Source of the DNA: Candidatus Gottesmanbacteria bacterium RIFCSPHIGHO2_02_FULL_39_11
GTDB taxonomy: Bacteria; Patescibacteriota; Microgenomatia; 2-02-FULL-39-11
Assembly: GCA_001779195.1 (NCBI GenBank)
Contig: MFJL01000026.1
Span: 3,226-67,225, forward strand
Length of the DNA: 64,000 nucleotides
Direction: 5' to 3'
The notes beneath the pieces were generated by a model. It saw only the letters and a program-made list of their open reading frames with translations. It was not told where the DNA came from and searched no databases. Shown here piece after piece: positions 14,574-63,144 of this stretch (its first letter is position 1; each line of letters begins with the position of its first letter). Both the position numbers and the translations under genes were made by a program.

Positions 14574-15089
14574 ATGGACAAATCAATCTTTTCCAGTCGA
14601 CTGCTTTTGCCTACAGTAATAATTTCTAGCCTCTATCTTTTAATAACAATACTTCTTATGAATCGCAGTTTAACTGTTGATACACTTTTTGGAACATACT
14701 CTCTTGACTACAAAGGTCAAATAATTATTTCACTTATAAGCGGTATGTGGACTTCGATGACTGACATGGGTTTGTTTCTTCTTGTGATAGCTTCGGTGCT
14801 TACCGGTCTTAACATTTCCCTTTTAGTAGATCGCTTGAACAAGTTAAAAAAGTTAGCGAAGCTTCATTTAGTGGTTGGAGGAAGTTCAATTCTGGGAATA
14901 GTAGGAAGCGGTTGTGCGGCCTGTGGATTGCCAATTCTAGCCCTTCTGGGATTAAGCGGAAGTGCTGCATATTTGCCTCTGAGGGGCATGGAACTGTCGT
15001 ACTTTTCTGTCTTAATATTATTATTTTCTTTTTATTTTTTGGTTAAAACTGATACCCGTCAATCTTGTACTATTAATGTAAATAAATAA
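14574..15089 (+). CDS. small polytopic membrane protein with CAAC motif (possible DsbB/VKOR-like or metal-handling partner)
   Basis: ~4 TM helices; GSGCAACGLP motif; immediately downstream of the DsbA-like gene. No confident family match. Confidence 0.3.
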   Translation: MDKSIFSSRLLLPTVIISSLYLLITILLMNRSLTVDTLFGTYSLDYKGQIIISLISGMWTSMTDMGLFLLVIASVLTGLNISLLVDRLNKLKKLAKLHLVVGGSSILGIVGSGCAACGLPILALLGLSGSAAYLPLRGMELSYFSVLILLFSFYFLVKTDTRQSCTINVNK

Positions 15090-15097
15090 ACGTCTAT

Positions 15098-36158: not shown

Positions 36159-36203
36159 CCCCGCAATGGATCCTTCTCCCGTCAGGGCGGGGTCAGGATG
36201 ACA
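36154..36203. repeat. palindromic repeat, family D (TGTCATCCCCGC...GCGGGGTCAGGATGACA)
   Basis: Hairpin with TGTCATCC/GGATGACA termini; related copies at 38960-38997 and 55513-55540. Confidence 0.7.
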
Positions 36204-37398: not shown

Positions 37399-37401
37399 AA
37401 C

Positions 37402-38901
37402 TTATCCTAAACTTTTTCTAAGCACTCCGGATCTGGTTATAAGATCCGAGACTTTTTTATGGTGCCGATCCTCGTAAATAGTGTCCGTCAATTCTTTATG
37501 TTCAAAATGAGACGGTTCTTTCGGTCCTAACTCAATATGAAAAATCTCTTCAATGCCTTCTATATCTTTTCGCAATCCGTTTAAGTTTTTTATGCTTCCT
37601 ATAGTCTTTTCAAGAGTATTTTGATTGAAAAAATAACCTGCCTGGATGATATCATTTTTAAGTGTGGGGTACAAATGTAAAATTTCAGAAAGTACACCTT
37701 TCTTTTTGGCATCTAGTAGTCCCCGCCCGGTTCCTATAATCTCAGGCGGAATCCCTATGGAATAAAGAGAAGCAGTAAAGGGAATTGCCCGGGGTAATGT
37801 CACTTTTCCGACTCCTCTGCTGTATCCAAACAATCCTACATGCTGCACCCGTTCGCGCCTTTTTGCTACCTGTTTACTCAGAATATTTATAAGCGGCGCA
37901 ATTTTTTCAATCGTTTCCCGATATGGTTTTTCAAAAAAGGAAACTGATTCTTTTGCAGTATTTTCAAGTTTCTTAGGAACGGAGACGGCACTTAGATGGG
38001 GAAGTTCCCTATTTAATTCGTGAATTGCTTCCTTGACTCTTTTCTCAGCATAATCATATCTAAAAGCACTTTGAATTGTGAGAGTTCTTACCCCCGGATA
38101 TTTTTGAATGGTTTCTGAAGTAGTTAACGGATTTACCCCTCCCCTAAAAGGAAGAGAGCCGGTCCCCAGCATCGGGAAAAGTTTTACTCCGGTTTCACTC
38201 TCCAAAGATGAGAAATTTGATAAAGCGCATCTGACTGCGAGCATTGTTGCAACCAGTCCTGAATTTAATGCCGGATCGCTTCTGGCACAATAGGGTCTTA
38301 GGTATTGGGGTTTTTTGCCGAATTTTTTAAGATGGAGTGAAATATATTTTTTTATGATGTTGCTTGATTCAAATATGCGCTCTACTTGCTCAAAAAGAGG
38401 AATAATTTCAATATGCTGAATGGAGTCTTCCATTTTCAACAGTTTGTGATCGATTGCGACAAGTTCACGAAATGCTTCCTGAATGTCCATAATCTCAGAA
38501 GCGGTCTCAGTAAGAGGGAGGATGGTTTCAAAAATAGGCGGGCTTGAGAATCCCAGACTTTCAGCCAACTGTGAACTGGTTATCATAACCATAAAGGCTC
38601 GTGCCAGTCTGAACTGCTTTTCAATCCGGGGATTAGGGATGCGGAATGTCAGAAATTTTTCTTTGCCCAGAGAGTGACTTTTAAAATAATCAAAGTATTT
38701 ATGCAAAAGCCGGTCAACAACGGCCTCATCCACAAACTTTCCCTCCCAGTCCCAGTTATATTCATCCATCCCGAGATTATTAAAACAATAATAAGCCTCG
38801 CGGGGTTCGGTTCCGGTTGATATATAAGCACGGGAATTCCAAAGAGGACGTCCTGCATTGTCCGGATGCTGAGTAGCCATGGTAGAGGGAATTTTGCGCA
38901 T
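37402..38901 (-). CDS. archaeal-type phosphoenolpyruvate carboxylase
   Basis: N-terminal IPSTMATQHPDN motif and ~500-aa length are characteristic of atPEPC (PpcA). Confidence 0.65.
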   Translation of the reverse strand: MRKIPSTMATQHPDNAGRPLWNSRAYISTGTEPREAYYCFNNLGMDEYNWDWEGKFVDEAVVDRLLHKYFDYFKSHSLGKEKFLTFRIPNPRIEKQFRLARAFMVMITSSQLAESLGFSSPPIFETILPLTETASEIMDIQEAFRELVAIDHKLLKMEDSIQHIEIIPLFEQVERIFESSNIIKKYISLHLKKFGKKPQYLRPYCARSDPALNSGLVATMLAVRCALSNFSSLESETGVKLFPMLGTGSLPFRGGVNPLTTSETIQKYPGVRTLTIQSAFRYDYAEKRVKEAIHELNRELPHLSAVSVPKKLENTAKESVSFFEKPYRETIEKIAPLINILSKQVAKRRERVQHVGLFGYSRGVGKVTLPRAIPFTASLYSIGIPPEIIGTGRGLLDAKKKGVLSEILHLYPTLKNDIIQAGYFFNQNTLEKTIGSIKNLNGLRKDIEGIEEIFHIELGPKEPSHFEHKELTDTIYEDRHHKKVSDLITRSGVLRKSLG

Positions 38902-49834: not shown

Positions 49835-51334
49835 ATGAAACAAAAAATTTACATCTTTGACACCACCCTAAGAGACGGTGAACAAACCCCCGGAGCCAAA
49901 TTAAATACTGCCCAAAAAGTAATTTTGGCAAAACAACTTGAGAAACTGGGAGTGGATATTATTGAGGCCGGGTTCCCTATCTCATCTCCGGGAGACTTCC
50001 AATCGGTTGTTGAGATCGGAAAAGCAGTAAAAGACGTAGTCGTATGCGGACTGACACGGGCTATAAAAGGAGATATCGACCGTGCAGCTGAGGCGCTTAA
50101 ATATTGTAAACATCCCCGGATTCATACCGGTATCGGAGCATCGGATGTTCACATCGAATTTAAATTTAAAAGTACTAGAGAAAAAATACTTGAACAAGGC
50201 ATAGAAGCTGTAAAGTACGCTAAAAAATGTGTAGATGATGTTGAATTTTATGCGGAAGATGCAGGACGGGCTGATAATGGATTTTTAGCCAAAATGGTGT
50301 ATGAAGTTATTAAAGCCGGTGCAACCGTTGTAAATATTCCGGATACTACCGGATATTGTTTTCCTGAGGAATTCGGAGAAAAAATAAAGTATCTTTTTAA
50401 TCACGTGGAAAACATAGACAAGGCAATTATTTCCGTTCACTGCCATAATGATCTGGGTATGGCAACTGCCAATACGCTATCAGGAGTGGCAAATGGAGCA
50501 AGACAAGTAGAGGTTACGATAAACGGCATCGGAGAGAGAGCAGGAAACACATCTCTTGAGGAAGTTGTAATGGCTCTTTATACCAGGAAAGACAAAACGG
50601 ATTACTTTACCGATATTAAAACTGCTGAGATTTCCCCGGCAAGTAAAATGGTATCAAGCATTATGGGAATTCCCATTCAGCCGAATAAAGCAATAGTGGG
50701 AGCCAATGCATTTGCCCATTCCTCAGGAATACATCAGGATGGAGTTTTAAAGAGACGCGAAAACTATGAAATTATTGATCCGAAAACCGTAGGACTGGAT
50801 GCATCCCAAATTATACTTACGGCACGATCAGGACGTGCTGCACTCCGACATAAGTTGGGAGAACTTGGAATTGAATTAAATCAGGATGAATTAAACGGTT
50901 TGTATGAAGATTTTTTAAATCTCGCTGACCGGAAAAAAGAAATTTATGATGAGGATCTCCGTATGTTGGTAGGAGAAAAACAGGAGGGCAAGCCGCAAAA
51001 AATAAAATTGGATTTGATACATGCAATTTCAGGGAATCAAAACCTTCCAACCGCTTCGGTCAAACTTACCATCCTGGACAAAGAATACGAGTCAGCAGCA
51101 ACCGGAGACGGAGGAATTGATGCCGCTTTTAAAGCAATTGATCACTGTGTGAAGAAAAAATACAAGCTTACTGAATTTATGATTACTGCAGTAAGTGTGG
51201 GAACAGACGCGCAAGCCCGGGTAAATGTAGCAATTGAGTATAATAAAGAACTTTTTTGGGGCGTGGGTATTGATACGGATACCGTCGTTGCAGCAGCTAA
51301 ATCTTATATAGATGCGATAAATAAATTTATCTGA
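49835..51334 (+). CDS. leuA: 2-isopropylmalate synthase / (R)-citramalate synthase family (LeuA/CimA) with C-terminal LeuA-dimer regulatory domain
   Basis: HMGL-like N-terminus [12 protein letters not shown]; HxH metal site; C-terminal [12 protein letters not shown] regulatory domain. Confidence 0.85.
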
Positions 51335-51336
51335 TT

Positions 51337-52734
51337 ATGCCTAAAACTCTTTTTCAAAAATTATGGGATTCTCATATCGTCAAAAAAATAGATGATGAGA
51401 CTTTCTTAATCTATATCGATACTCATCTGGTGCATGAGGTTACTTCCCCCCAGGCGTTTAACGGACTGAGAAAGCGCGGAATCAAAGTAAGACGGAGGGA
51501 TAAAACTTTTGCAACATGCGATCATAATGTCCCGACATCCGATCAGAAAAACATACGGGATGAATTATCCCGCCTCCAAGTTGAAGCGCTTGAAAAAAAC
51601 TGTAAGGAATTTGAAATCCCCCTGTATGGACTGGATAGTCCCCATCAGGGAATTGTTCATGTAATAGGACCTGAACTTGGAATTACACAGCCGGGTGCAA
51701 CCATAGTCTGCGGAGATTCCCACACGTCCACTCATGGTGCATTTGGGACTTTGGCATTCGGAATTGGAACAACGGAAGTTGAACAGGTTTTAGCAACTCA
51801 GTGTCTGCTCCAATCTCCCTTAAAGACTATGGAAATAAAAATTGATGGAAAATTGGGGAGTGGTGTAACTGCTAAAGATATTATTCTGACCATTATTAGA
51901 AATATCGGAACTAAAGGCGGAAGCGGGTATGCAATTGAATACACGGGAGAAGCAATAAGAAATCTTTCAATGGATGGACGCATGACCATATGCAATATGA
52001 GTATCGAGGCAGGGGCAAAAGCAGGAATGGTTGCTGCGGATCAAAAGACATTTGACTATATAAAAGGAAAAATGTTTGCACCCTATGGAACAAATTGGGA
52101 TAAAGCTTTAGATTATTGGAAAAGTCTTCATACAGATAAAGGGGCTGCATATGATAAATTAATTGTAATTAATGGAAATACAATTGAACCGCTGGTAACA
52201 TATGGAACAGATCCTTCAACAGGAATTAAATTAAGCGAAAAAATTCCAAATTTTTCCGATTTAAAAACTCCTGAGGAAAAAATTACACTTACCAAATCTT
52301 TGGAATACATGCAGATTAAACCCGGAACATCTTTAAATAATTTTCCTATAGATTATGTGTTTATTGGAAGCTGTACGAACTCTAGACTATCCGATCTTCG
52401 TGAAGTTACAAACTTAATAAAAGGAAAAAAAGTAAAATCAGGAGTTTATGCTTTTGTGGTACCGGGATCCCGGCATGTAAAAAAAATGGCTGAGGAAGAG
52501 GGCTTAGACAAAATATTTATAAGTGCCGGATTTGACTGGAGAGGAGCGGGATGCTCAGCCTGTCTGGGGATGAACGAAGATAAAATTCCGGCAGGAAAAT
52601 ACTGTGTTTCGACAAGTAATAGAAATTTTCAAGGCCGCCAGGGCCCGGGAGCCCGCACTTTTTTGGCAAGTCCTCTAACCGCTGCAATTTCAGCAATAGA
52701 AGGAAAAATTGTTGATGTGAGAAATTATTTATAA
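51337..52734 (+). CDS. leuC: 3-isopropylmalate dehydratase large subunit
   Basis: Aconitase-family Cys ligands and the LeuC N-terminus. Confidence 0.9.
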   Translation: MPKTLFQKLWDSHIVKKIDDETFLIYIDTHLVHEVTSPQAFNGLRKRGIKVRRRDKTFATCDHNVPTSDQKNIRDELSRLQVEALEKNCKEFEIPLYGLDSPHQGIVHVIGPELGITQPGATIVCGDSHTSTHGAFGTLAFGIGTTEVEQVLATQCLLQSPLKTMEIKIDGKLGSGVTAKDIILTIIRNIGTKGGSGYAIEYTGEAIRNLSMDGRMTICNMSIEAGAKAGMVAADQKTFDYIKGKMFAPYGTNWDKALDYWKSLHTDKGAAYDKLIVINGNTIEPLVTYGTDPSTGIKLSEKIPNFSDLKTPEEKITLTKSLEYMQIKPGTSLNNFPIDYVFIGSCTNSRLSDLREVTNLIKGKKVKSGVYAFVVPGSRHVKKMAEEEGLDKIFISAGFDWRGAGCSACLGMNEDKIPAGKYCVSTSNRNFQGRQGPGARTFLASPLTAAISAIEGKIVDVRNYL

Positions 52735-52740
52735 ACATAC

Positions 52741-52826
52741 TGTCATTCCCACGTTTACCCTGAAAAGTTCGCTTTTTAGGGAAGGCGGGAATCCATCCTG
52801 GATCCCGGATCAAGTCCGGGATGACA
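52741..52826. repeat. composite palindromic repeat (family A + family B modules) between leuC and leuD
   Basis: TGTCATTCCCACGTTTACCCTGAAAAGTTCGCTTTTTAGGGAAGGCGGGAATCC + TGGATCCCGGATCAAGTCCGGGATGACA. Confidence 0.75.
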
Positions 52827-52836
52827 AATAATATAT

Positions 52837-53424
52837 ATGAAAAAAATTCACAAAATCACTTCTCATACTCTCCCATTAAAACACGAGAACATCGACACAG
52901 ACCAAATTATCCCTGCTAAATTTCTTAAAACCACAGTGCGGGAAGGAATCGGGGAGTTTTTCTTCCATGCATGGCGGGAGGATAAAGATTCCGTTTTTCA
53001 TTCTTCTAAGCATAAAGGGGCCAAAATACTTTTGGCAGGAAAAAACTTCGGAATCGGAAGTTCCCGCGAGCATGCTGTGTGGGCAACACTGGATTACGGA
53101 TTTGATGCCGTTATTTCTTCTTCGTTTGGAGACATTTTTTACAACAACTCGTTAAAAAACGGCCTTATTCCTGTCAAAATCGCACACAGCGAACTTTTGG
53201 AACTGTTTGGATTGGTTGAAAAAGACCACACCACCATTATCGAAGTAAATTTGGAGAGTGAGGAAATTCATCTTCCCAAACACGGAAAAAAATATAAATT
53301 CCCGATTGATCCTTTCCGGAAACAGCTTTTGTTAAATGGAACAGATGAATTAGGGTATCTTTTGACACTCGATAAAGAAATTTCAGAATTTGAAAATAAA
53401 CATAAAGGATTTGTGAATAATTAA
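52837..53424 (+). CDS. leuD: 3-isopropylmalate dehydratase small subunit
   Basis: Aconitase swivel domain, 195 aa. Confidence 0.9.
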   Translation: MKKIHKITSHTLPLKHENIDTDQIIPAKFLKTTVREGIGEFFFHAWREDKDSVFHSSKHKGAKILLAGKNFGIGSSREHAVWATLDYGFDAVISSSFGDIFYNNSLKNGLIPVKIAHSELLELFGLVEKDHTTIIEVNLESEEIHLPKHGKKYKFPIDPFRKQLLLNGTDELGYLLTLDKEISEFENKHKGFVNN

Positions 53425-53445
53425 TTATCATCTAAAAAATATTCA

Positions 53446-53471
53446 GATCCTGAAACAAGTTCAGGATGACA
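53446..53471. repeat. palindromic repeat, family C (GATCCTGAAACAAGTTCAGGATGACA) between leuD and leuB
   Basis: Perfect hairpin ATCCTGAAC/GTTCAGGAT; the same unit recurs at 59205-59231. Confidence 0.7.
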
Positions 53472-53477
53472 TAAGAT

Positions 53478-54542
53478 ATGCAAAAAACCATAGCTGTTTT
53501 ACCGGGTGACGGAATCGGTCCTGAAATAATTGAAGAAAGTATTAACATACTAAATGCCGTTGCAAAAAAATTCAATCATATGTTCGAGTATAAATATGGA
53601 TTAATCGGCGCTTCCGCAATTGATAAAACAGGTGATCCGTTTCCAAAAGAGACAGAAGAAATTTGCAGAACTTCCGATGCAATTTTATTTGGGGCAATCG
53701 GGGATCCGAAATATGATAATGACCCGCGGGCAAAAGTAAGACCGGAACAGGGAATTTTACGTCTTAGAAAGTCTTTGGAACTTTTTGCAAACATTAGACC
53801 AGTCAGTATTTACCCGGAACTTTTTGATATTTCTCCTCTGAAAAATGAAAAGCTTAAAAACGTAGATTTTATTATCGTCAGAGAATTGACCGGCGGGATA
53901 TATTTTGGTGAAAAGAAACGATTCAGTAGCAGTAAAAGTGCATCCGATGTCCTAACTTATTCAAAAGATGAAATAAAGAGAATTGCAAAAAAAGCATTTG
54001 ATCTTGCTAAAAAAAGAAAGAAAAAAGTGACATCTGTTGACAAAGCAAACGTTTTGGAAACTTCACGGCTTTGGAGAGAGACGGTAAATGAAATATCACA
54101 GGATTATTCAGGTGTTGAGTTAAATCATCTATTTGTTGACAATACTTCCATGCAGATTATCAAACGTCCCTCTGAATTTGATGTCATTCTGACGGAAAAT
54201 ATGTTCGGAGATATTCTCTCCGATGAGGCATCGGTGCTAGCCGGTTCAATAGGACTTCTTCCTTCCGCATCCATCGGAGAAAAATACGCGCTTTACGAAC
54301 CTATCCATGGAGCGTTTAATAAAGCCGCGGGTAAAAATATAGCAAATCCCGTGGGTACCATTTTATCCGCAGCCATGATGTTGCGGTTAAGTTTTAAGAT
54401 GGAAGAAGAAGCACAAGTAGTTGAAAACGCAGTGAAAGAAACGATTAAGGATGGGAAGAGAACTAAAGATACAGCACCCTCACAAGAAACTTATTTAGGA
54501 ACAAAAGAATTCGGGGAAATAATTAAGAAAAATTGTCTTTGA
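53478..54542 (+). CDS. leuB: 3-isopropylmalate dehydrogenase
   Basis: IAVLPGDGIGPEI N-terminus and the isocitrate/IPM dehydrogenase signature. Confidence 0.9.
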   Translation: MQKTIAVLPGDGIGPEIIEESINILNAVAKKFNHMFEYKYGLIGASAIDKTGDPFPKETEEICRTSDAILFGAIGDPKYDNDPRAKVRPEQGILRLRKSLELFANIRPVSIYPELFDISPLKNEKLKNVDFIIVRELTGGIYFGEKKRFSSSKSASDVLTYSKDEIKRIAKKAFDLAKKRKKKVTSVDKANVLETSRLWRETVNEISQDYSGVELNHLFVDNTSMQIIKRPSEFDVILTENMFGDILSDEASVLAGSIGLLPSASIGEKYALYEPIHGAFNKAAGKNIANPVGTILSAAMMLRLSFKMEEEAQVVENAVKETIKDGKRTKDTAPSQETYLGTKEFGEIIKKNCL

Positions 54543-54548: not shown

Positions 54549-55502
54549 TTAAATTTTCGTTAGCCAATTTTTATATTTGTTATTTCTCCCTCTCACAATG
54601 TCAAAAAAGAGTTTCTGAAGTTTTCCGGTGACGGGTCCAATTTTACCATCACGTATTTTCCTTCCGTCAACTTCTGAAATCCATGCCACCTGCGCGCCGG
54701 TTCCTGACAGAAAACACTCATCTGAAATATATACCTCACTCCTATCTACTTCCCGTTCCTCAACCGGAATATGAAGATCACGGGCAAGCTGAATAATGGA
54801 ACGCCTGGTAATTCCTTCTAAAATATCTGAATAGTTAGATGGGGTGATAAGCACACCATCCCTTACCATAAAGAAATTTGCGGCAGATCCTTCAGTAATG
54901 TGGCCTTCTGATGTCATCATTAGAGCGTCATCAAATCCCAAGCTTTCAGCGTCTCCTTTTGCCAACGATGAGTTAATATATGCTCCTGTAACTTTTGCCC
55001 GTGCCGGAATCATCACATCTGAAATCCGTATCCAGTTTGAAATCATCAGTTTCAATCCTTTGTGTATCGGCAGGTACTCCCCCAGAGGGATCATGTATAT
55101 CGCAAAATCAAAGACCGCTTCGTGAAGGTTAGGAGATAATCCTAAATTGGATGCATAAGCAAGGGGCCGGAAATAACAATCTGTATCCGGTGCATTTTTC
55201 TTTGCAAGTTCAATGGTAATATCAACCAATTTCTTATGAGAATAAGGAATGGTCTTATTTAAAATATTGAGCGACTTTAAAAACCTTTGATAATGATCCG
55301 CAATTCTGAAAATCGCTACTTCTTTTTTGGGATTTTGGATTTTGGATTTTGGATTTTCTTGTACATACCCCCGTATTCCTCCAAATATTCCCGTCCCGTA
55401 CTGAAGAGCGTTTGTCATAATACTGACCTTTGCTTCACCAATCGGAACTATTTTCCCTTTAAAAAAAACATAGGGAAAAGAGATTTTTGAATTGTTTGTC
55501 AT
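54549..55502 (-). CDS. ilvE: branched-chain amino acid aminotransferase (fold type IV)
   Basis: Class IV aminotransferase motifs; its stop lies 6 nt from the convergent leuB stop. Confidence 0.85.
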   Translation of the reverse strand: MTNNSKISFPYVFFKGKIVPIGEAKVSIMTNALQYGTGIFGGIRGYVQENPKSKIQNPKKEVAIFRIADHYQRFLKSLNILNKTIPYSHKKLVDITIELAKKNAPDTDCYFRPLAYASNLGLSPNLHEAVFDFAIYMIPLGEYLPIHKGLKLMISNWIRISDVMIPARAKVTGAYINSSLAKGDAESLGFDDALMMTSEGHITEGSAANFFMVRDGVLITPSNYSDILEGITRRSIIQLARDLHIPVEEREVDRSEVYISDECFLSGTGAQVAWISEVDGRKIRDGKIGPVTGKLQKLFFDIVRGRNNKYKNWLTKI

Positions 55503-55512: not shown

Positions 55513-55635
55513 TGTCATCCCCGACCAGATCGGGGATCCACTCATTAATAAATAAGTTTTATTCTAAGATTTTTTAAGGATTGGATTCCCGCCTGCCCTA
55601 AAAAGCGAATTTTCAGGGTAAACGCAGGAATGACA
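55513..55635. repeat. composite palindromic repeat (family D + inverted family A) between ilvE and ridA
   Basis: Seen directly. Confidence 0.7.
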
Positions 55636-55659: not shown

Positions 55660-56085
55660 TTAACAGCATTCTCCTCCGCATCCATCACATCCTTCATCCT
55701 TCATCCGTTTAATATACGCAATACATTCAATTTCAATCGGCGATCCTTTCGGAAGAACAGCAACCTGTACCGTTGCACGAGCAGGGAACGGCTTCTCAAA
55801 ATAAGTTTCATAAACTTTATTCATATCAGAGAATTTCGAAAGATCAGTCATATAAACCGTTGTTTTAAGTACCGATTCCATGCCGGAGCCGGCATCTTCT
55901 AAAATCGATTTGATATTTTCCAAAACTTGTTTTGTTTGTTTTGAAATATCACCCTTTACTATTTCTTTTGTTTTAGGGTTTATGGGAATCTGTCCTGAAA
56001 CAAAAACCAGATCTCCTATAACCACCCCTTGGGAATAGGGGCCAATTGCTTGTGGTGCATTGGGTGTAATAATTTCTTGAATCAT
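55660..56085 (-). CDS. ridA: RidA/YjgF-family reactive enamine/imine deaminase with Cys-rich C-terminal tail
   Basis: PNAPQAIGPYSQGVVIGDLVFVSGQIP RidA core; an extra C-terminal CDGCGGECC. Confidence 0.8.
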   Translation of the reverse strand: MIQEIITPNAPQAIGPYSQGVVIGDLVFVSGQIPINPKTKEIVKGDISKQTKQVLENIKSILEDAGSGMESVLKTTVYMTDLSKFSDMNKVYETYFEKPFPARATVQVAVLPKGSPIEIECIAYIKRMKDEGCDGCGGECC

Positions 56086-56086
56086 G

Positions 56087-57916
56087 TTATTTACCTTTCT
56101 TGTTTAACTGATAATAAAGTTCATTATACCCTCTTACATATGCATCCATGGATGCAACTATCATATCAGGAGATGTTCCTTTTGCAACAATTTCCGTACC
56201 GTCACTTGATACCAAAACCATAGTCACAACAACAGATGCGTTGCTTCCTGAGGTAGGAATCTCAACAAGAAAGTCTTTCAGACGAAAAGAGATGCCGTCA
56301 TATTTATTAATAATTGATTTAATTGCAGAAACCGCAGCATCCACGGGCCCGTCTCCGATACCGTTTGCTGTATATATTTTTCCGTTAAGTTTAACCGTCA
56401 CAAAAACAGACGCTTTTCTGTGTTTAGAATCAGAAAGAGTAAAGTCTTCCAAACTTAGATAATCATTGGGAGACTGATGCTGAAAAATGGTCTCAAGAAT
56501 TGTCTGCAAATCAGCTTTCCCCAGAGATTTTCCTTTCTCTTTTACAAAATGGTTTACCTGTTTTACAACTTTTTTTATGTCGTCTTGTGATAATTGTATG
56601 TCAAATTCATGGTGAATAATTTTCGAAATTTTTTTCTCATCAAAATTTTCATCCAGAAGCTTTTTCTCTTTTTCTGAAGTTTCTGATGTCTTCATGGAAA
56701 GCAAATTTTGGGAAAAAATCCGCTCTACTTCTTTAAGATCCGGTTCAATTGTCGGAGGTGCCGCCATAATTTTTAAAGTTGCCGCAGGGTCTTTAAGCCC
56801 TATACCGGTTGCCACACACACGACCGTATCATCTTTAGAGATAGTTTTAGTCTTTAGCAGTTTTGCCAAAGCAACAATGGTTGTTGCACTGCTGGGCTCG
56901 ATATACAAAGCCTGAGTTTGAGCAAGCATTTTTTGTGCGAGAAGTGCCTCTTCATCAGAGGCATCGGTAATGGTTCCGTGTGTGTTAACTAACGATTCAA
57001 TCACTTTCGGAGCATCAATTGGGAATCCGCATGCGATTGCTCCGCAGATAGTCTGAGGTTTTTGAACCGGCCGGACTTGGTATGAATTTTTATCAGGATA
57101 AATGGAATGACAACCGGAAGCTTGTACTCCGACAATTTTAGGCATTTTTTTAATAAGTCCAAGTCTATAGTACTCATATATTCCTTTATAAATTCCTGAA
57201 AGATGCGTACCCATGCCGATAGGAACTATAATCCAGTCTACATTTCCGCCAGGTACTTGATCCATGATTTCAAAGCCGGTTGATTTCTGACCTTCCTGTC
57301 TAAAAACATAATCTCCTGCAAGATAAAAATTGTATTTTTTGGCAACTTTTTCACACAGCTCGCTTGCTTCATTATAGGTGCTACTTACCTGAATCACCTT
57401 TGCACCATAGGAGAGTGTCTGAGCAAGTTTTCCTTTGGGAGTATTTTCAGGAATAAAGACATAGCAGGCAAGTCCCGCTTGTGCGGAAAATGCAGCAACA
57501 GATGCAGCCATATTGCCTGTTGAAGCCACACACACAGAAGTAAATCCAAGCTCTTTGGCTTTATTTATCTCGACAAAACTTCCCCGATCCTTAAACGCAC
57601 CTGTTGGATTAAGTCCCTCATGCTTAATATAGATATGATCGTTTTTAAGTTTTATTCCCAGTTTTTTTGCATGAATAAGGGGAGTTCCGCCTTCTTTAAG
57701 AGAAACTAAATTTTTCCTGGATTTAAACGGATAAAAATCCAGGTACTTCATAACCGTGGGCTTTGCATTTTCCAACAGATACGGATTCATTTTATTTTTA
57801 AGTTCCTCAAAATTATATTCAATAGTTAAAGCACCTCCGCAGGAAAGACACCGGGAGGTGGTCATTTTTTCATCCGTCTTTTTTTTACATGAGACACACT
57901 GCAGATAGTAATTCAT
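56087..57916 (-). CDS. PLP-dependent ThrC-like enzyme (threonine synthase/dehydratase fold II) with N-terminal Zn-ribbon and C-terminal LeuA-dimer-like allosteric domain
   Basis: Cys4 ribbon (CVSC...CLSC); PLP-lysine signature HEGLNPTGAFKDRGS. The C-terminal ~110 aa match the LeuA_dimer regulatory block (ANGIGDGPVDAAVSAIKSI). Confidence 0.6.
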   Translation of the reverse strand: MNYYLQCVSCKKKTDEKMTTSRCLSCGGALTIEYNFEELKNKMNPYLLENAKPTVMKYLDFYPFKSRKNLVSLKEGGTPLIHAKKLGIKLKNDHIYIKHEGLNPTGAFKDRGSFVEINKAKELGFTSVCVASTGNMAASVAAFSAQAGLACYVFIPENTPKGKLAQTLSYGAKVIQVSSTYNEASELCEKVAKKYNFYLAGDYVFRQEGQKSTGFEIMDQVPGGNVDWIIVPIGMGTHLSGIYKGIYEYYRLGLIKKMPKIVGVQASGCHSIYPDKNSYQVRPVQKPQTICGAIACGFPIDAPKVIESLVNTHGTITDASDEEALLAQKMLAQTQALYIEPSSATTIVALAKLLKTKTISKDDTVVCVATGIGLKDPAATLKIMAAPPTIEPDLKEVERIFSQNLLSMKTSETSEKEKKLLDENFDEKKISKIIHHEFDIQLSQDDIKKVVKQVNHFVKEKGKSLGKADLQTILETIFQHQSPNDYLSLEDFTLSDSKHRKASVFVTVKLNGKIYTANGIGDGPVDAAVSAIKSIINKYDGISFRLKDFLVEIPTSGSNASVVVTMVLVSSDGTEIVAKGTSPDMIVASMDAYVRGYNELYYQLNKKGK

Positions 57917-57926
57917 ATGTTTTCTC

Positions 57927-58046
57927 TGTCATTCCCGCGTTTACCCTGAAAAATTCGCTTTTTAGGGCAGGCGGGAATCCATCGATGGATCCCGGGTCTC
58001 GGAACAATTCTGTCGAATTTTCCGAGTAAACAAGCCCGGGATGACA
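57927..58046. repeat. composite palindromic repeat (family A + expanded family B) between ilvC and thrC-like gene
   Basis: Seen directly. Confidence 0.75.
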
Positions 58047-58050: not shown

Positions 58051-59103
58051 TTATTTTTTTAAATTTTCCGGTCTTAAGCTTCTAACCATTCTTCCTGCTC
58101 TCCAAATTTCAAGTTCTGACATCTCTTTTAATTCTTTATTTAATTTTTCTTTGTAATCTTTTGTTGCGTTTGCTTTAAGAACCCGTGCTGTTTCTTTCCC
58201 CTCTTTGACACTCTGATATAACTTTTTAAATACCGGCATCACCGCTTTTTTAAACTTCCCCTTCCAATCCAGTGCTCCCCGCTGAGCAGTTGTACTACAA
58301 TTTGCGTACATCCAATCCATTCCACTCTCTGCAACCATTCGGATAAGACTTTGTGTCAGTTCTTCAACCGTTTCGTTAAATGCTTCACTGGGAGTGTGTC
58401 CTTTTTTCCTAAGAGTCTCGTACTGAGCTTCCATAATTCCGGCAAGCGCTCCCATTAAGACTCCCCTCTCTCCGGTCAGATCGCTGTATACTTCATTTTT
58501 AAAATTGGTTTCAAATAAAAACCCCGATCCTATTGCAATTCCCATAGCCAATACTCTTTCTCTAGCACGGCCGGTTGCATCCTGAAAAACCGCAAAACTG
58601 CTGTTTATTCCGCTTCCGTCTAAAAAGTTAGTCCGAACCGATCTTCCAGCGCCTTTCGGAGCAACTAAAATTACATCAATATCTATGGGTGGAATAATTT
58701 TCGTTTGTTCCTTATAGGTAATTCCAAATCCGTGAGAAAAATACAAGGCTTTTCCCTTGGTTAAGTATTTTTTAACATCTGGCCATAACTGCATTTGTCC
58801 TGCATCGGATAACAAATATGCGATAATGGTGCCTTTTTCCAGCGCTTCTTCAATTGAAAATAAATTTTTCCCTTTTTTCCATCCGTCTTTTACGGCTTTA
58901 CCCCAGGAGGGAGATGGATACCTCTGTCCGATAATTACATGAATTCCGTTATCTCTCAAATTCATTGCCTGCGCAGGTCCTTGGACTCCATATCCGATTA
59001 TCGCAACGGTTTCACCTTTTAAGACTTCCTTTGCCTTTTTTAAAGGAAATTCTTCCCGGGTCATAACGGTTTCTAATTCATCTCCGAATTTTATTTTGGA
59101 CAT
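58051..59103 (-). CDS. ilvC: ketol-acid reductoisomerase (class I)
   Basis: Rossmann motif GYGVQGPAQAMNLRDNG and a KARI C-terminal knotted domain. Confidence 0.9.
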   Translation of the reverse strand: MSKIKFGDELETVMTREEFPLKKAKEVLKGETVAIIGYGVQGPAQAMNLRDNGIHVIIGQRYPSPSWGKAVKDGWKKGKNLFSIEEALEKGTIIAYLLSDAGQMQLWPDVKKYLTKGKALYFSHGFGITYKEQTKIIPPIDIDVILVAPKGAGRSVRTNFLDGSGINSSFAVFQDATGRARERVLAMGIAIGSGFLFETNFKNEVYSDLTGERGVLMGALAGIMEAQYETLRKKGHTPSEAFNETVEELTQSLIRMVAESGMDWMYANCSTTAQRGALDWKGKFKKAVMPVFKKLYQSVKEGKETARVLKANATKDYKEKLNKELKEMSELEIWRAGRMVRSLRPENLKK

Positions 59104-59110
59104 AAATTTT

Positions 59111-59268
59111 TGTAAGTGACCTAGAAGCAGTCTCGAAACCTTTACATCTCTGTCATGCTGAATTCATTTCAGCATCTTCAGAAGATTCCTGAACCGAATT
59201 CAGGACAGGCTCTGAAACAAGTTCAGGATGACGGTTTAGAGATGACTTCTAAGTCACTTAAGTAACTT
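59111..59268. mobile_element. MITE-like composite of hairpin modules bounded by ~17-25-bp imperfect terminal inverted repeats (TGTAAGTGACCTAGAAG / CTTCTAAGTCACTTAAGTAACTTAC) between ilvN and ilvC
   Basis: Terminal IRs with 1 mismatch enclose TGTCATGCTGAA..., ATTCCTGAACCGAATTCAGGACAG and family C modules. Confidence 0.45.
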
Positions 59269-59752
59269 ACTTAAATAATGCCGTCCTTCCGGTTCTTACG
59301 AACTCCATCACTCCATATTTCTTCATATTTTTATAAAATCCTTGTATCTTTTCTTCGTTTCCGGTTATCTCAAGCATCATATATTCAGGCGTGACTTGAA
59401 TTACTTTTGCACGGAAGTGATCTGCAATTAAAGAAATTTCTCCCTTGCTTCCGGTTTTTGTAGTTGAAACTTTAATAAGTCCAAGCTCTCTGGCAACAAT
59501 ACTATCTTCTTCCGGTTCGTTTACCTTGATAACTTCGATGATCCGGTATAACTGCTTTGCCATTTTTTCGACCGTTTCCTTATCTCCTTCAACAACGATT
59601 GTAAATCGGGACATGTCAGGATCCTCAGTTGCCGATACCGTAAGAGAAGCGATGTTAAATCTTCTTTTTCGGATAAGTCCTGAGATCCGGTATAAAACAC
59701 CCGGTTTATTTTGAACGGTTACGATTAATGTAGAAAATTTATTTTGCTTCAT
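59267..59752 (-). CDS. ilvN: acetolactate synthase small (regulatory) subunit
   Basis: N-terminal ACT domain followed by the ALS_ss_C domain. Confidence 0.85.
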   Translation of the reverse strand: MKQNKFSTLIVTVQNKPGVLYRISGLIRKRRFNIASLTVSATEDPDMSRFTIVVEGDKETVEKMAKQLYRIIEVIKVNEPEEDSIVARELGLIKVSTTKTGSKGEISLIADHFRAKVIQVTPEYMMLEITGNEEKIQGFYKNMKKYGVMEFVRTGRTALFK

Positions 59753-59785
59753 AGTCTTAATTGTTCATTGTACATTGAACACTAT

Positions 59786-61471
59786 TCATTCAATTCTAAT
59801 TTCATCCACCGATGCTCCCTGCGGAATCATCGGGAAAATATTCTGCTCTTTTTCAACAACAAACTCAATAAGATAGGGTCCTTTATGCTTTCTCGCCCGT
59901 TTAATTGCGCCTTCTATATCTTTTCTTTCCGTCACTTTTTCTGATGGAATTCCGAATCCTTCTGATAATTTCATAAAGTCAGGATTTTTCAAAGATACGG
60001 ATGAATAATTTTTATCAAAAAATAACTGCTGCCATTGTCTTACCATTCCTAAAAAATTATTATTTAAAAGCATTATTTTTATATCCAGGTTTTCCTGAGC
60101 AATCGTTGCCATCTCCTGCATAGTCATTTGGAAAGATCCGTCTCCGACAATTGTCCATACTTCATCATTAGGCTTTGCAACTTTAACACCTATACTGGCG
60201 GGAAGTGCAAAACCCATGGTTCCCAACCCCCCGCTTGTGACAAAACTGTCATGTTTTTTATATTCATAATATCTGCAAGCAATCATCTGATGCTGTCCGA
60301 CATCAGCAACGATACGTGATTTTCCGTGGGTTATATCGGAAAGTTTTTTTACAATTTCACTCATTTTTAAGGGTCCTTTCCTAGGATAGATTTCAGGACG
60401 GATCACTTTTTCGTACTCCACTTTGTCATAATCTTTAAACATGTCAAACCATTCTTTTCTTCCTTTAGATTCTTTGATGAGGGGAAGCAAACTTTTCAGT
60501 ACTTCTTTTACGTCTCCGACAATAGGTACACTGACTTTTACATTCTTACCCAGTTCCGCAGGATCAATATCTACATGAATAATAGTTGCATGGGGCAAAT
60601 AATCATTTAGTCTTCCAGTTACCCGATCATCAAATCGCATCCCAAGGGCAATAACAACATCGGCTTTATTTACACATTTATTGGGGGCCAAATTCCCATG
60701 CATCCCAAGCCAGCCGATATAATTAGGATGGTCTCTTTTGATACAGCTGATTCCGTGAAGTGTGGTTCCAACCGGAATTGCGGCTTTTTCGGATAACTCT
60801 AAAAGTTCTTTTTCCGCATGAGAAATAAGTACACCGTGTCCGGCAAAGATATAGGGCTTACTGCTTTGGTTTATAAATTCAGCCGCCCGTTCTATCTGAT
60901 GCATGTTTCCTTTCACTGTAGGATTATACCCGGGTAAATTAATTTTTTCGGGATAGTTAAATTCTATTTTTTCAAATTGTGCGTCTTTTGTGATATCAAT
61001 TACAACCGGTCCGGGCCTTCCGGTTCCGGATATATGAAACGCTTCTTTAACTGACACGGCAATTTCAGATGCTTTCATTATCAGATAATTATGCTTAGTA
61101 ACCATCGCTGTAATTCCTACAACATCCGTTTCCTGAAAAGCATCTCCCCCAATCAGATGTGAATGAACCTGTCCGCTTATGGCAACAACGGGAACTGAAT
61201 CAAGTATCGCATCAGCAAGACCGGTAACAACATTGGTTGCTCCCGGTCCTGATGTCACCAGACACACGGCAGGTTTTCCGGTAGACCTAGCATATCCTTC
61301 AGCCGCATGGATTGCTCCCTGTTCATGACGAACCAAAATATGGCGAAGTTTTGGATAGCGGGTGAGCGCATCATAAACGGGCATAATCGCGCCTCCCGGA
61401 TATCCGAATATTACTTCAACTCCTTCTTTTAATAGTGATTCACAAAGTATTTCAGCGCCGGTTAGTTTCAT
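59786..61471 (-). CDS. ilvB: acetolactate synthase large subunit (ThDP-dependent)
   Basis: ThDP-binding GDG...N motif and the conserved N-terminus. Confidence 0.9.
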
Positions 61472-63144
61472 ACAAGTATCGCCCCTTTTTCAGCACCCGT
61501 TACCAACTTTGCATACCTTGCTAACCATCCCTTAGAAACAGACAGTTTAAACGATTTTAAGTTTTTCTTTCTTTTTAAAATTTCTCTCTCTGAAACCAGT
61601 AGTGATATTTTCTTTTTTTCTGCATCTATTTCTATTTCATCCCCGTCTTTTACTAAAGAAATCGGACCGCCAACTGCAGCCTCCGGTGCAATATGTCCTA
61701 CAACATGCCCATGCGTTCCTCCCGAGAATCTTCCGTCTGTTATTAATGCTATATCTTCTCCTAATCCTTTTCCCATTACAGCGGAGGTGACCGATAACAT
61801 TTCTCTCATTCCGGGGCCGCCTTTGGGTCCTTCGTACCGGATGACAAGGACTGATCCTTTTTTTATTTTATTTTTCATAAGAGCATCCATGGCTTCTTCT
61901 TCGCTGTTAAAGACTTGGGAAGGACCCTTAAAATAGGAATATTTAAGTCCGGTAAGTTTAGTAATTGCTCCACGAGGGGCTAAGTTACCGTTAAGAATTG
62001 CCATTGGCGGATGAGTATACATTGGGTTATCAAAGGAAGAAATAACATCCTGCCCTTTTTTAAAGTCGGAAACAGCTTTTAAATTTTCTTTTATGGTTTT
62101 TCCGGTAACTGTCAAACACTCTCCGTGTAATAAACCCGCTTGTAATAACTGCTTCATAAGTGCTGGTACTCCTCCTACTTTATATAAATCAGCCATCACA
62201 TACTTCCCCGAAGGTTTAAGATTTCCCAGATAGGGGGTTTTTAATGCAACTCTTTGAAAGTCATCCAGTGTTAACTTGATATCTACTTCATGGGCCATGG
62301 CTAATAAATGTAACACTGCATTGGTTGATCCTCCGAGAGCCATCACAACAGTAATTGCATTTTCAAATGCTTTTTTTGTCATAATCATTTTTGGAGTAAT
62401 CTTTTTTTTAATCAGAGTAACAATCTGCTCGCCGGCTTTTTTACATTCCTCTTTTTTTTCAGGATATACTGCAGGAGTGGATGAAGATTGCGGTAAACTC
62501 ATACCCAAAGATTCAATTGCTGAGGACATTGTGTTGGCCGTATACATTCCTCCGCATGCACCCGGACCCGGACACGCGTTACACTCTATACATTTAAATT
62601 CATCTTTGGAAATTTTTCCCGCATTATATTTTCCTACAGCTTCAAAAATGGATACAATATCTACTTTCTTTCCATGACACTCCCCAGGAAGTATGGTTCC
62701 GCCGTAAACAAATATAGATGGAATATTAATTCTACCCATAGCCATGAGGCAACCGGGCTGATTTTTATCGCATCCGCCGATTGCGACAAGCCCATCGTAA
62801 TTTTGGGCTTTTGCAACAGTCTCAATTGAATCTGCAATAATTTCCCGCGAAGGCAGAGAATATTTCATCCCCCAGTGTCCCATTCCGATTCCGTCAGAGA
62901 CAGTTATGGTATTAAAAATCTGAGGAGCCCCGCCCCCTATTTTCACGCCTTGTTTAACTTCACGAGCGAGCACATCAATATGGCTGTTGCAGGGCGTAAC
63001 TTCAGCCCACGTTGACGCAACACCTATCATGGGTTTTTTAAAATCGAGATCTGTAAATCCAACAGCTCTAAGCATGGCACGATTCGGCGCCCTCTCATTC
63101 CCTTCCGTTGTCAGATAACTTCTGAATTTAAGATATGACTTCAT
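61468..63144 (-). CDS. ilvD: dihydroxy-acid dehydratase
   Basis: IlvD/EDD Cys ligands ([17 protein letters not shown]). Confidence 0.9.

What the first reader, a model, noticed from the sequence alone, without database searches (positions are those of the whole stretch)
55660..57916. ThrC-like PLP enzyme fused to a LeuA-dimer-type allosteric domain, adjacent to RidA with a Cys-rich tail, inside the ilv operon
This is a strong candidate for a previously undescribed feedback-regulated threonine-dehydratase analogue.

The gene between ridA and ilvC has a Cys4 Zn-ribbon and the threonine-synthase-type PLP signature HEGLNPTGAFKDRGS. It lacks the ACT-like domains of IlvA. Instead its last ~110 aa match the LeuA/CimA C-terminal regulatory block (ANGIGDGPVDAAVSAIKSI...), the domain that binds Leu/Ile for feedback inhibition.

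Its position between ilvE/ridA and ilvC is where threonine dehydratase (the 2-oxobutanoate supplier) is expected. RidA is the known partner that quenches the enamine product of threonine dehydratase.

The RidA here also carries an odd CDGCGGECC tail.
Basis: partly seen in the sequence, partly recalled or inferred. Interest (0 to 1): 0.85.

Follow-up and report, generated by a model that had tools for sequence, protein, structure and literature searches.

The report
Threonine-synthase-like enzyme with LeuA regulator
Inside a branched-chain amino-acid operon of an uncultured CPR bacterium sits a relative of threonine synthase that has swapped threonine synthase's conserved (by recollection, phosphate-binding) residues and gained the isoleucine/leucine-sensing domain of LeuA/CimA; it most likely stands in for threonine deaminase, the first enzyme of isoleucine synthesis, and hundreds of genomes label it simply "threonine synthase".

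Summary
The 609-aa ORF (56087-57916, minus strand) has a Cys4 zinc ribbon, a ThrC-type PLP domain and a LeuA/CimA-type linker plus regulatory domain. It lies in the operon ilvD-ilvB-ilvN-ilvC-X-ridA-ilvE.

The architecture is widespread: all 120 best protein clusters carry it, and a pattern scan found relatives in 454 species-level genomes (the 80 best checked), mostly CPR and NC10. Every named copy is called "threonine synthase", and I found no paper on it.

New evidence here:
- Five positions are invariant T/N-S/R/N in all solved threonine synthases. This clade has M/G-D/R/(M,C,V) instead.
- A Methylomirabilis genome carries a canonical hom-thrC pair 5 kb from the fusion gene.
- In CPR lineages the gene travels with ilv genes in varying orders, often beside ridA.
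- No IlvA homologue occurs in the window or in any of 80 related loci.

The best reading is an isoleucine-feedback-regulated threonine dehydratase analogue (2-oxobutanoate supplier) derived from ThrC, at confidence about 0.55. Activity, effector and genome-wide absence of ilvA are untested. The RidA Cys-rich tail is real and specific to the Gottesmanbacteria-type clade.

The parts
56087..57916 (-). Fusion gene (609 aa): zinc ribbon + ThrC-like PLP domain + LeuA-type linker and regulatory domain
57812..57916 (-). N-terminal Cys4 zinc ribbon (residues 1-35; C7, C10, C23, C26)
   Evidence: Cysteines conserved in 65-66 of 66 members; model pLDDT about 90; also found in canonical-signature ThrC-like proteins of about 410 aa
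56804..57706 (-). PLP (PALP) domain, residues 71-371. K109 is the Schiff-base lysine. Signature residues are M136, G201-D202, R206 and M235, in place of ThrC T88, N154-S155, R160 and N188
   Evidence: alignments to 5 solved ThrCs; signature invariant in the clade
56639..56791 (-). Flexible inter-domain linker (residues 376-426), low model confidence
   Evidence: pLDDT 49-65
56099..56608 (-). LeuA/CimA-type module, residues 437-606: three linker helices plus a bbba-bbba regulatory domain (Pfam LeuA_dimer 467-600)
   Evidence: Pocket residues D526, L546, F549, I553, V562 and P583 are conserved
55660..56085 (-). RidA (Rid family imine/enamine deaminase), starting 1 nt after the fusion gene's stop codon; PAR motif present
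   Evidence: TIGR00004 173.5 bits; adjacency statistics
55663..55707 (-). Cys-rich C-terminal tail of RidA (RMKDEGCDGCGGECC)
   Evidence: Similar CC/CxxC-rich tails occur in 8 of 10 Gottesmanbacteria-type RidAs found (L002-L008, L010) and in none of the 12 Peregrinibacteria-type or other RidAs
58051..63144 (-). Upstream operon genes: ilvD (61468-63144), ilvB (59786-61471), ilvN (59267-59752), ilvC (58051-59103)
   Evidence: Pfam labels of the identical genes on a sister contig
54549..55502 (-). ilvE (class IV aminotransferase), last gene of the operon
49835..54542 (+). Convergent leuA-leuC-leuD-leuB operon. LeuA is the only HMGL/LeuA_dimer protein found in the window and scores as 2-isopropylmalate synthase, not CimA
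   Evidence: NF002086 734.8 bits, cut-off 532
57926..57983 (.). 58-nt palindromic REP-like element in the ilvC-fusion spacer. An inverted copy lies at 55582-55635 (ridA-ilvE spacer) and a direct copy at 52740-52797 (leuC-leuD spacer)
   Evidence: the spacer folds at -54 kcal/mol, z -5.7

Best explanation
The gene encodes a PLP-dependent threonine dehydratase analogue, the 2-oxobutanoate supplier for isoleucine synthesis. It evolved from the threonine-synthase lineage rather than from IlvA.

Proposed mechanism (inferred, not shown):
1. L-threonine forms the external aldimine on K109-PLP and is dehydrated to the PLP-aminocrotonate intermediate. This is the same intermediate that threonine synthase passes through.
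2. The pocket that holds the phosphate ion in threonine synthase has been remodelled (T to M, N-S to G-D, N to M/C/V), so water is not re-added at C-beta.
3. The enamine/imine is therefore released, and the co-transcribed RidA hydrolyses it to 2-oxobutanoate plus ammonia.
4. IlvBN, IlvC, IlvD and IlvE, encoded by the same operon, carry 2-oxobutanoate on to isoleucine.

The C-terminal LeuA/CimA-type linker and regulatory domain binds a branched-chain amino acid, most logically isoleucine, and feedback-inhibits the PLP domain. It plays the role of IlvA's ACT-like domains.

What is shown: the architecture, the residue substitutions, the fold matches, the gene context and the coexistence with a canonical thrC. 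What is inferred: the substrate, the product, the effector and the direction of regulation.

For: (2) ThrC-specific residues are replaced. Five solved ThrCs (Aquifex, M. tuberculosis, Thermus, B. subtilis, Arabidopsis) all have T88 / N154-S155 / R160 / N188 in Thermus numbering. The fusion has M136 / G201-D202 / R206 / M235. The same signature occurs in all 120 independently retrieved homologues and 66 of 66 in A2.

(3) An NJ tree places the M-G-D-R clade as sister to the canonical T-N-S-R-N clade. On TIGR00260 the M-G-D proteins score 177-234 bits, against 330-336 for canonical ThrCs.

(4) Prior knowledge, not retrievable here (Murakawa et al. 2011, PMID 21084312, reference confirmed; Omi et al. 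2003): these residues bind the substrate or product phosphate, and without bound phosphate Thermus ThrC makes only alpha-ketobutyrate.

(5) The fusion is not the cell's threonine synthase in NC10. L079 has a canonical hom-thrC pair 5 kb from the fusion gene; the ThrC is 354 aa and scores 329.9 bits on TIGR00260.

(6) Context. In 12 of 12 Gottesmanbacteria-type loci the gene sits among at least 3 ilv genes, and 11 of 12 have ridA. In other CPR loci, 21 of 39 have ilv genes and 14 of 39 have ridA, with different gene orders. A stand-alone clade member lies in an HMGL-like / ThrC-like / RidA operon.

(7) No IlvA or ThrB homologue was found in the 64-kb window or in 80 loci. Every E. coli IlvA hit fell on the fusion's own PLP domain. 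The window's only LeuA-like gene scores as IPMS, not CimA.

(9) Precedent. Ordinary ThrCs of Thermus, B. subtilis and Microcystis show threonine deaminase side-activity (PMC12172450).
Against: No biochemical or genetic data exist for any member.

The roles of T88, N154, S155, R160 and N188, and of the LiCMS pocket residues, come from my memory of papers that the library does not hold. Only their invariance was tested here.

R160 (R206) is retained, so some anion binding may persist.

Genome-wide absence of ilvA, tdcB or cimA, and presence of a separate thrC in the CPR hosts, could not be tested, because only 10 kb either side of each gene was available.

All 29 NC10 loci lack ilv or ridA neighbours.

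The basal stand-alone M-G-D-R-N relatives, several of them archaeal, sit in uninformative contexts, so the whole clade might perform some other reaction.

The protein still passes the TIGR00260 cut-off.

The source of threonine in these reduced genomes is unknown.
Confidence: 0.55

Rival explanations
1. It is a genuine threonine synthase (O-phosphohomoserine to threonine) that has simply acquired a LeuA-type allosteric domain. Threonine supply would then be tuned to branched-chain amino-acid levels, and a separate enzyme makes 2-oxobutanoate.
For: It passes TIGR00260 (229.9 against a cut-off of 167.1). The closest sequences and folds are threonine synthases. R206, equivalent to R160, is retained. 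Every database name is 'threonine synthase'.
Against: Four of the five residues invariant in solved ThrCs are replaced, including Ser to Asp. It scores about 100 bits below canonical ThrCs. A canonical hom-thrC pair coexists 5 kb away in L079. There is never a hom or thrB neighbour. The conserved ridA linkage makes no sense for a synthase that does not release an enamine. No other 2-oxobutanoate-forming enzyme is seen in the operons.
Confidence: 0.08
2. It makes 2-oxobutanoate without using threonine. It would keep ThrC's gamma-elimination chemistry and act on a non-phosphorylated homoserine derivative (homoserine, O-acetyl- or O-succinyl-homoserine, or vinylglycine-like), giving a threonine-bypassing branch to isoleucine. 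Regulation through the LeuA domain and use of RidA would be the same.
For: It descends from the only fold-type II enzyme that performs beta,gamma-elimination. The retained R206 could bind a distal carboxylate. The ilv and ridA context fits equally well. B. subtilis ilvA suppression through ThrC is a known precedent for a homoserine-derived route (prior knowledge; related papers listed).
Against: No metX, metA, thrB or hom genes co-localise. The pocket changes are towards hydrophobic residues plus an Asp, which suits a small neutral side chain better than an acyl ester. The route requires more chemistry than simple dehydration.
Confidence: 0.12
3. It catalyses some other PLP beta-elimination or beta-replacement. 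Examples are serine or another hydroxy-amino-acid dehydratase, or a cysteate-synthase-like replacement. Its link to branched-chain amino acids would be only regulatory, or its role in NC10 and archaea would be unrelated to isoleucine.
Against: Co-operonic placement with ilvBNCDE recurs in several gene orders. The regulatory domain is a BCAA-type sensor. The cysteate synthase model scores only 67 bits against a cut-off of 325. Threonine dehydratase is the one step that the window's ilv/leu gene set lacks.
Confidence: 0.2

Closest known systems
Threonine synthase ThrC (EC 4.2.3.1; TIGR00260; PDB 2D1F, 2ZSJ, 1UIM, 6CGQ)
   Different: The invariant T/N-S/N residues (by recollection, the phosphate site) are replaced by M/G-D/(M,C,V). 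It has an extra 230-aa C-terminal linker plus LeuA-type regulatory domain. It is encoded in ilv operons beside ridA rather than with hom/thrB. It coexists with a canonical ThrC in NC10.
Biosynthetic threonine deaminase IlvA (EC 4.3.1.19; PF00291 + PF00585)
   Different: Only 19-24% identity. All IlvA models score far below cut-off. The regulatory module is a LeuA_dimer domain rather than ACT-like Thr_dehydrat_C. The substrate loop reads ASTGNM rather than the IlvA-type S-x-G-N-H (from memory).
Regulatory domain of LeuA / citramalate synthase CimA (PF08502; PDB 3F6G/3F6H with Ile bound, 3FIG with Leu bound)
   Different: It is attached to a PLP enzyme instead of the HMGL-like TIM barrel. It is 23% identical to the host's own LeuA domain, so the fusion is old. 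Effector identity is untested.
Promiscuous threonine deaminase activity of ordinary ThrCs (B. subtilis, T. thermophilus, Microcystis; PMC12172450)
   Same: The ThrC scaffold producing 2-ketobutyrate, which shows that the chemistry is accessible.
   Different: Those are side-activities of enzymes with an intact phosphate site and no regulatory domain. Here the site is remodelled and the family is fixed in ilv operons.
Cysteate synthase (TIGR03844; CapA2, PDB 9K3O)
   Different: It uses O-phosphoserine and sulfite. The fusion scores only 67 bits against a cut-off of 325 on the family model. Its context is unrelated.

Membership tests
Threonine synthase (ThrC, TIGR00260) | Fold-type II PLP domain with the Schiff-base Lys in the xFKDRG motif | tested here: met
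Threonine synthase (ThrC, TIGR00260) | Score above the curated equivalog cut-off | tested here: met
   229.9 against 167.1, but about 100 bits below canonical ThrCs at 330-336
Threonine synthase (ThrC, TIGR00260) | The invariant T88, N154, S155, R160 and N188 (Thermus numbering), which by recollection bind the phosphate of O-phosphohomoserine | tested here: not met
   M136, G201, D202, R206, M/C/V235; only the Arg is kept. The functional role of the residues comes from prior knowledge; their invariance in 5 solved ThrCs was tested here
Threonine synthase (ThrC, TIGR00260) | Being the genome's threonine-forming enzyme, typically linked to hom/thrB | tested here: not met
   No hom or thrB neighbours in the window or 80 loci. 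A separate canonical hom-thrC pair is present in L079. Whole genomes were not available
Threonine synthase (ThrC, TIGR00260) | Catalysis of O-phosphohomoserine to threonine | not testable with these tools
   Needs an enzyme assay or thrC complementation
Biosynthetic threonine dehydratase IlvA (TIGR01124/TIGR01127) | IlvA-type catalytic domain scoring above the family cut-off | tested here: not met
   Best IlvA model scores 112.4 against a cut-off of 378.75
Biosynthetic threonine dehydratase IlvA (TIGR01124/TIGR01127) | C-terminal ACT-like regulatory domain(s), PF00585 | tested here: not met
   No PF00585 hit; the C-terminus is LeuA_dimer
Biosynthetic threonine dehydratase IlvA (TIGR01124/TIGR01127) | Threonine to 2-oxobutanoate activity inhibited by isoleucine | not testable with these tools
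   Supported only by context and pocket analysis
LeuA/CimA (2-isopropylmalate / citramalate synthase) | HMGL-like TIM-barrel catalytic domain (PF00682) | tested here: not met
   Absent
LeuA/CimA (2-isopropylmalate / citramalate synthase) | LeuA_dimer allosteric domain (PF08502) with its preceding linker helices | tested here: met
RidA (TIGR00004) - the neighbouring gene | Rid family fold above cut-off, with the Arg of the PAR motif | tested here: met
   173.5 against 106.25; FPARATV present. The essential role of the Arg is from prior knowledge

The most novel reading that the evidence does not exclude
The M-G-D clade of ThrC-like proteins would be an independent evolutionary origin of the first enzyme of isoleucine biosynthesis. 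In this reading a threonine synthase lost its phosphate site and became a dedicated 2-oxobutanoate-forming dehydratase, or possibly a homoserine-derivative gamma-lyase that bypasses threonine. It then captured the LeuA/CimA allosteric module for isoleucine feedback, displacing IlvA in CPR bacteria, NC10 and relatives. If true, this is a non-orthologous displacement combined with transplantation of an allosteric domain between unrelated catalytic folds.
Probability: 0.5. Interest if true: 0.75.

Novelty: new variant of a known kind. Interest (0 to 1): 0.65.

Why it matters
If correct, it has four consequences.
- It fills the threonine-deaminase gap in isoleucine biosynthesis for CPR (Gottesmanbacteria, Peregrinibacteria, Gracilibacteria) and possibly NC10/Methylomirabilis genomes. 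That would change metabolic reconstructions of organisms usually regarded as auxotrophic.
- It corrects a systematic mis-annotation as "threonine synthase", which likely applies to most of the 454 species-level genomes that have a relative.
- It gives a natural example of an allosteric domain (LeuA_dimer) moved onto a different catalytic fold, which is useful for understanding and engineering modular feedback control and biosensors.
- It shows how loss of a product-assisted catalytic element (the bound phosphate) can convert a synthase into a lyase.

Tried and rejected
- A single-sequence scan of genome contigs found nothing because the patterns were too specific. The rerun with alignment A1 succeeded.
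- Literature searches for the fusion, for ThrC active-site residue roles and for CPR or NC10 isoleucine pathways found no relevant paper.
- The key mechanistic papers (PMC3024773, PMC7050208, doi 10.1074/jbc.M110.186205) are not held, so residue roles rest on memory.
- The afdb50 fold library was unavailable.
- An exact look-up of the window's IlvD found no record.
- Extending beyond the window edges revealed no thr, ilvA or cimA genes. It also showed that the 77-kb ENA contig ends inside ridA, so it is a sister assembly rather than the window's source.
- The window's AA_kinase ORF (1077-1937) was considered as an aspartokinase and rejected: it is ProB-like.
- Rfam found no riboswitch, T-box or leader anywhere in the window.
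- The promoter scan found no more sites than shuffled sequence gives, and the terminator scan was within about 1.4 sd of the shuffles.
- The signature count on the 80 loci is partly circular, because D202 is part of the scan pattern. It was redone on independently retrieved proteins.
- The idea that the inverted REP-like copies flanking fusion+ridA mark a mobile cassette was set aside, because the same element also sits in the leuC-leuD spacer and elsewhere in the window.
Full report
**What is there**

The minus strand of 54.5-63.1 kb carries a tight seven-gene operon:
- ilvD (61468-63144)
- ilvB (59786-61471)
- ilvN (59267-59752)
- ilvC (58051-59103)
- the 609-aa gene in question (56087-57916)
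- a 141-aa RidA gene (55660-56085, starting 1 nt after the preceding stop codon)
- ilvE (54549-55502)

It converges on leuA-leuC-leuD-leuB (49835-54542).

Pfam finds PALP at residues 71-371 (251.5 bits) and LeuA_dimer at 467-600 (87.8 bits, cut-off 24.9) in the 609-aa protein. There is no IlvA-type regulatory domain. NCBIfam puts the protein above the generic thrC cut-off (229.9 against 167.1) and far below every IlvA model. Its residues 437-606 also match 2-isopropylmalate synthase models.

The motif HEGLNPTGAFKDRGS is residues 99-113. The four zinc-ribbon cysteines are conserved in 65-66 of 66 relatives.

An AlphaFold2 model built on 66 family members is confident (mean pLDDT 85.3). It shows:
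- a zinc ribbon (1-35)
- the PLP fold (about 55-375)
- a disordered linker (376-426)
- a three-helix bundle (427-479)
- a bbba-bbba domain (487-606)

**How common it is**

The architecture is not a one-off or an assembly chimera. All 120 best clusters in the 5.8-billion-protein collection carry PF00291 + PF08502. They run down to 42% identity, and those that have a name are called "threonine synthase".

A pattern scan of one genome per GTDB species found 454 genomes with a relative. The 80 best are full-length fusions from Gottesmanbacteria, Peregrinibacteria/Peribacteria, Gracilibacteria and other Patescibacteria, and, unexpectedly, many NC10/Methylomirabilota including Ca. Methylomirabilis oxygeniifera. 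The window's closest named relatives are Gottesmanbacteria at 59-60% identity.

Full-text searches for this fusion returned nothing.

**The active site is not that of a threonine synthase**

Alignments to the five solved threonine synthases (Aquifex, M. tuberculosis, Thermus, B. subtilis, Arabidopsis) show the following:

| Motif | All five solved ThrCs | The fusion |
|---|---|---|
| Substrate loop | ASTG(N/D)-T | ASTGN-M136 |
| Second motif | (V/A)-N-S-x-N-x-x-R-x-EGQK | A-G201-D202-Y-V-F-R206-x-EGQK |
| PLP-phosphate loop | P-x-G-N-x-G-N | P-x-G-M235-G-T-x |

In Thermus numbering these positions are T88, N154, S155, R160 and N188.

From my own knowledge of Omi et al. 2003 and Murakawa et al. 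2011 (PMID 21084312; the reference was confirmed, but the text is not held), these residues hold the phosphate of O-phosphohomoserine. The phosphate ion retained after gamma-elimination is the base that directs water onto C-beta. Without it, Thermus ThrC produces only alpha-ketobutyrate.

The M / G-D / R / (M,C,V) signature is present in all 120 independently retrieved homologues and in 66 of 66 sequences of alignment A2. The count on the 80 loci is partly circular, because D202 lies in the scan pattern.

An exhaustive search of 1.84 billion representatives with the PLP half alone, followed by alignment and an NJ tree, gave three results:
- Every canonical ThrC in the sample has T-N-S-R-N. This covers the three solved structures placed in the tree, an NC10 ThrC, and the zinc-ribbon ThrCs of about 410 aa.
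- The sister clade is uniformly M-G-D-R-x.
- The LeuA-domain fusions are a derived subgroup of that clade, among shorter stand-alone M-G-D-R-N proteins.

The M-G-D proteins score 177-234 bits on TIGR00260, against 330-336 for canonical-signature proteins.

**Genomic evidence**

- In L079 (Methylomirabilis sp.) a canonical hom-thrC pair lies 5 kb from the fusion gene. The ThrC is 354 aa, scores 329.9 bits on TIGR00260 and has the full T/N-S/R/N set. So in that organism the fusion is not the threonine synthase.
- All 12 Gottesmanbacteria-type loci have the gene among at least three ilv genes, and 11 of 12 have ridA. Of 39 other CPR-type loci, 21 have ilv genes on the same strand and 14 have ridA. 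Gene orders differ: ilvBN-X-ridA-ilvE-ilvC-ilvD, X-ilvE-ilvD-ilvC-ilvB, ridA-X, and others.
- A stand-alone M-G-D member (P0152) lies in an overlapping HMGL-like / ThrC-like / RidA operon.
- tblastn with E. coli IlvA, ThrA, ThrB and ThrC found no IlvA or ThrB homologue in the window or in any locus. All IlvA hits fell on the fusion's own PLP domain. NC10 hom and thrC queries hit only L079.
- The window's single LeuA-like protein scores as isopropylmalate synthase (734.8 against 532), not as citramalate synthase.
- Pfam scans of 30 of the larger ORFs elsewhere in the window and of the flanks beyond its edges show no alternative 2-oxobutanoate source.

The operon therefore encodes every step from pyruvate plus 2-oxobutanoate to Val, Ile and Leu, except the 2-oxobutanoate-forming step. 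The fusion plus RidA sits in that slot.

On the other side of the ledger, all 29 NC10 loci lack ilv or ridA neighbours. Four stand-alone relatives have uninformative surroundings; two of them are clearly archaeal by their neighbours.

**The regulatory half**

By sequence, the only solved match is the Leptospira citramalate synthase regulatory domain (3F6G/3F6H, E 3.6e-4). By structure it is also the best match.

I recalled the Ile-contacting residues of that domain (Zhang et al. 2009, PMID 19351325) as Y430, D431, L451, Y454, I458, T464, V468, P493' and Q495'. With an offset of 389, all nine fall on the right residue types in the 3F6G chain, which supports the recollection.

The mapping onto the fusion family is:

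| LiCMS residue | Fusion position | Conservation in 66 members |
|---|---|---|
| D431 | D526 | 65 of 66 |
| L451 | L546 | 59 L, 6 I, 1 V |
| Y454 | F/Y549 | 66 of 66 |
| I458 | I553 | 66 of 66 |
| V468 | V562 | 66 of 66 |
| P493 | P583 | 66 of 66 |
| Y430 | V525 | differs |
| T464 | S/T/V558 | differs |
| Q495 | I/V585 | differs |

The first five mappings come from the computed alignment. V468, P493, T464 and Q495 were placed by reading the alignments by eye.

The I-P and S-P-D motifs resemble CimA more than the host's own LeuA. This is a weak hint toward isoleucine.

The module is 23% identical to the host LeuA's corresponding region, so the fusion is ancient rather than a local accident. PF08502 of CimA has been used as a self-standing isoleucine sensor (PMC13381585), which shows that the domain is portable.

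**Most likely mechanism**

The pieces fit a threonine dehydratase analogue:
1. Threonine is dehydrated on PLP to the aminocrotonate aldimine, an intermediate of the ThrC reaction.
2. With the phosphate pocket gone, water is not re-added, and the enamine/imine is released.
3. RidA hydrolyses it to 2-oxobutanoate.
4. IlvBN, IlvC, IlvD and IlvE complete the pathway to isoleucine.
5. Isoleucine binds the LeuA-type domain and inhibits the enzyme.

Ordinary ThrCs already show this side-activity (PMC12172450).

I put this at about 0.55. The rivals are:
- a non-threonine route to 2-oxobutanoate from a homoserine derivative (0.12)
- another PLP reaction with BCAA-linked regulation (0.20)
- a genuine, regulated threonine synthase (0.08)

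**Limits**

- No activity data exist.
- Residue roles rest on memory plus conservation.

**Other things seen**

- The RidA Cys-rich tail is real and clade-specific: 9 of 11 Gottesmanbacteria-type RidAs (the window's included) have one, and none of the 12 others does.
- A 58-nt palindromic REP-like element occupies three spacers of the ilv and leu operons and brackets the fusion-ridA pair in inverted orientation.

**Verdict**

This is a real, widespread and uncharacterised enzyme family that is mis-annotated as threonine synthase. It is best read as a ThrC-derived, LeuA-domain-regulated replacement for IlvA. I class it as a new variant of a known kind, with interest 0.65.

Noticed in passing
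window 57926-57983, 55582-55635, 52740-52797 (core 11-mer also at 29455, 36154, 43395): A 58-nt palindromic REP/MITE-like element sits in the ilvC-fusion, ridA-ilvE (inverted) and leuC-leuD spacers, so the fusion+ridA pair is bracketed by inverted copies (32 nt at 100% and 26 nt at 96% complementarity). The core GCGGGAATGAC occurs 6 times against 0.47 expected. The ilvC-fusion spacer folds at -54 kcal/mol (z -5.7) with no U-tract. A second short element, CAAGYCCGGGATGACA, recurs at 52811, 53456 and 58031.
   Followed up: partly
window 55663-55707 (-); L002-L008, L010 ridA genes: The Cys-rich C-terminal tail of RidA (CDGCGGECC here; CCGGGCGGDC, CCGEGDCGCC, CCGGCC and similar elsewhere) is conserved as a feature in 8 of the 10 other Gottesmanbacteria-type RidAs next to the fusion. 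It is absent from Peregrinibacteria-type RidAs. This suggests metal or Fe-S binding; the function is unknown.
   Followed up: partly
P0129-P0170 subset; loci L084, L085, L086, L087: About 20 representative stand-alone ThrC-like proteins (350-420 aa) share the M-G-D-R signature but keep Asn at the N188 position and lack the regulatory domain. Two of the four examined are clearly archaeal by their neighbours (Pelota, eEF1A, RFC, MC1). They are unnamed or called 'threonine synthase', and their function is equally unknown.
   Followed up: partly
JGI 3300071358 contig (P0152, no DNA held): A stand-alone M-G-D ThrC-like gene lies in an overlapping three-gene unit: HMGL-like (410 aa, LeuA/CimA catalytic domain without a regulatory domain), ThrC-like, then RidA.
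   Followed up: no
L047 4656-5891 (+): A third kind of zinc-ribbon ThrC-like paralogue (411 aa, pocket residues A/G-R/K/V) sits directly upstream of the fusion gene, next to enolase-superfamily (MR_MLE) and cyclase genes. It is neither canonical ThrC nor M-G-D type.
   Followed up: no
P0142, P0184, P0194, P0201, P0203, P0233, P0244, P0252, P0258, P0261, P0267: A separate clade of ThrC-like proteins of about 490-500 aa has a different, unexamined C-terminal extension and L/F-rich pocket residues. P0142 may lack the Schiff-base lysine in the alignment.
   Followed up: no
window 36193-38901 (-); L022, L056, L071: An archaeal-type PEP carboxylase (PEPcase_2) and a class I/II aminotransferase lie about 17 kb from the operon. 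Homologues recur near the fusion gene: both genes in L022, the aminotransferase in L056 and L071. This hints at an oxaloacetate/aspartate supply module.
   Followed up: no
window 3289-16165: A dense copper/heavy-metal cluster: two P-type ATPases with HMA domains, a DsbD_2-cupredoxin protein, a multicopper oxidase, a DsbA-like thioredoxin and a BlaR1/M56 peptidase.
   Followed up: no
window 57866-57916; P0001: The public gene call for the identical protein starts at Met18 (592 aa) and removes the first CxxC of the zinc ribbon. Family conservation of C7 and C10 supports the upstream ATG at 57916.
   Followed up: yes
L003, L006, L009, L016, L018, L029, L065 record titles: Several MAG records carrying CPR-type ilv operons with the fusion are titled 'uncultured Gammaproteobacteria bacterium' or 'Nanohalarchaeota archaeon'. 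This is probably mislabelled or mis-binned taxonomy.
   Followed up: no
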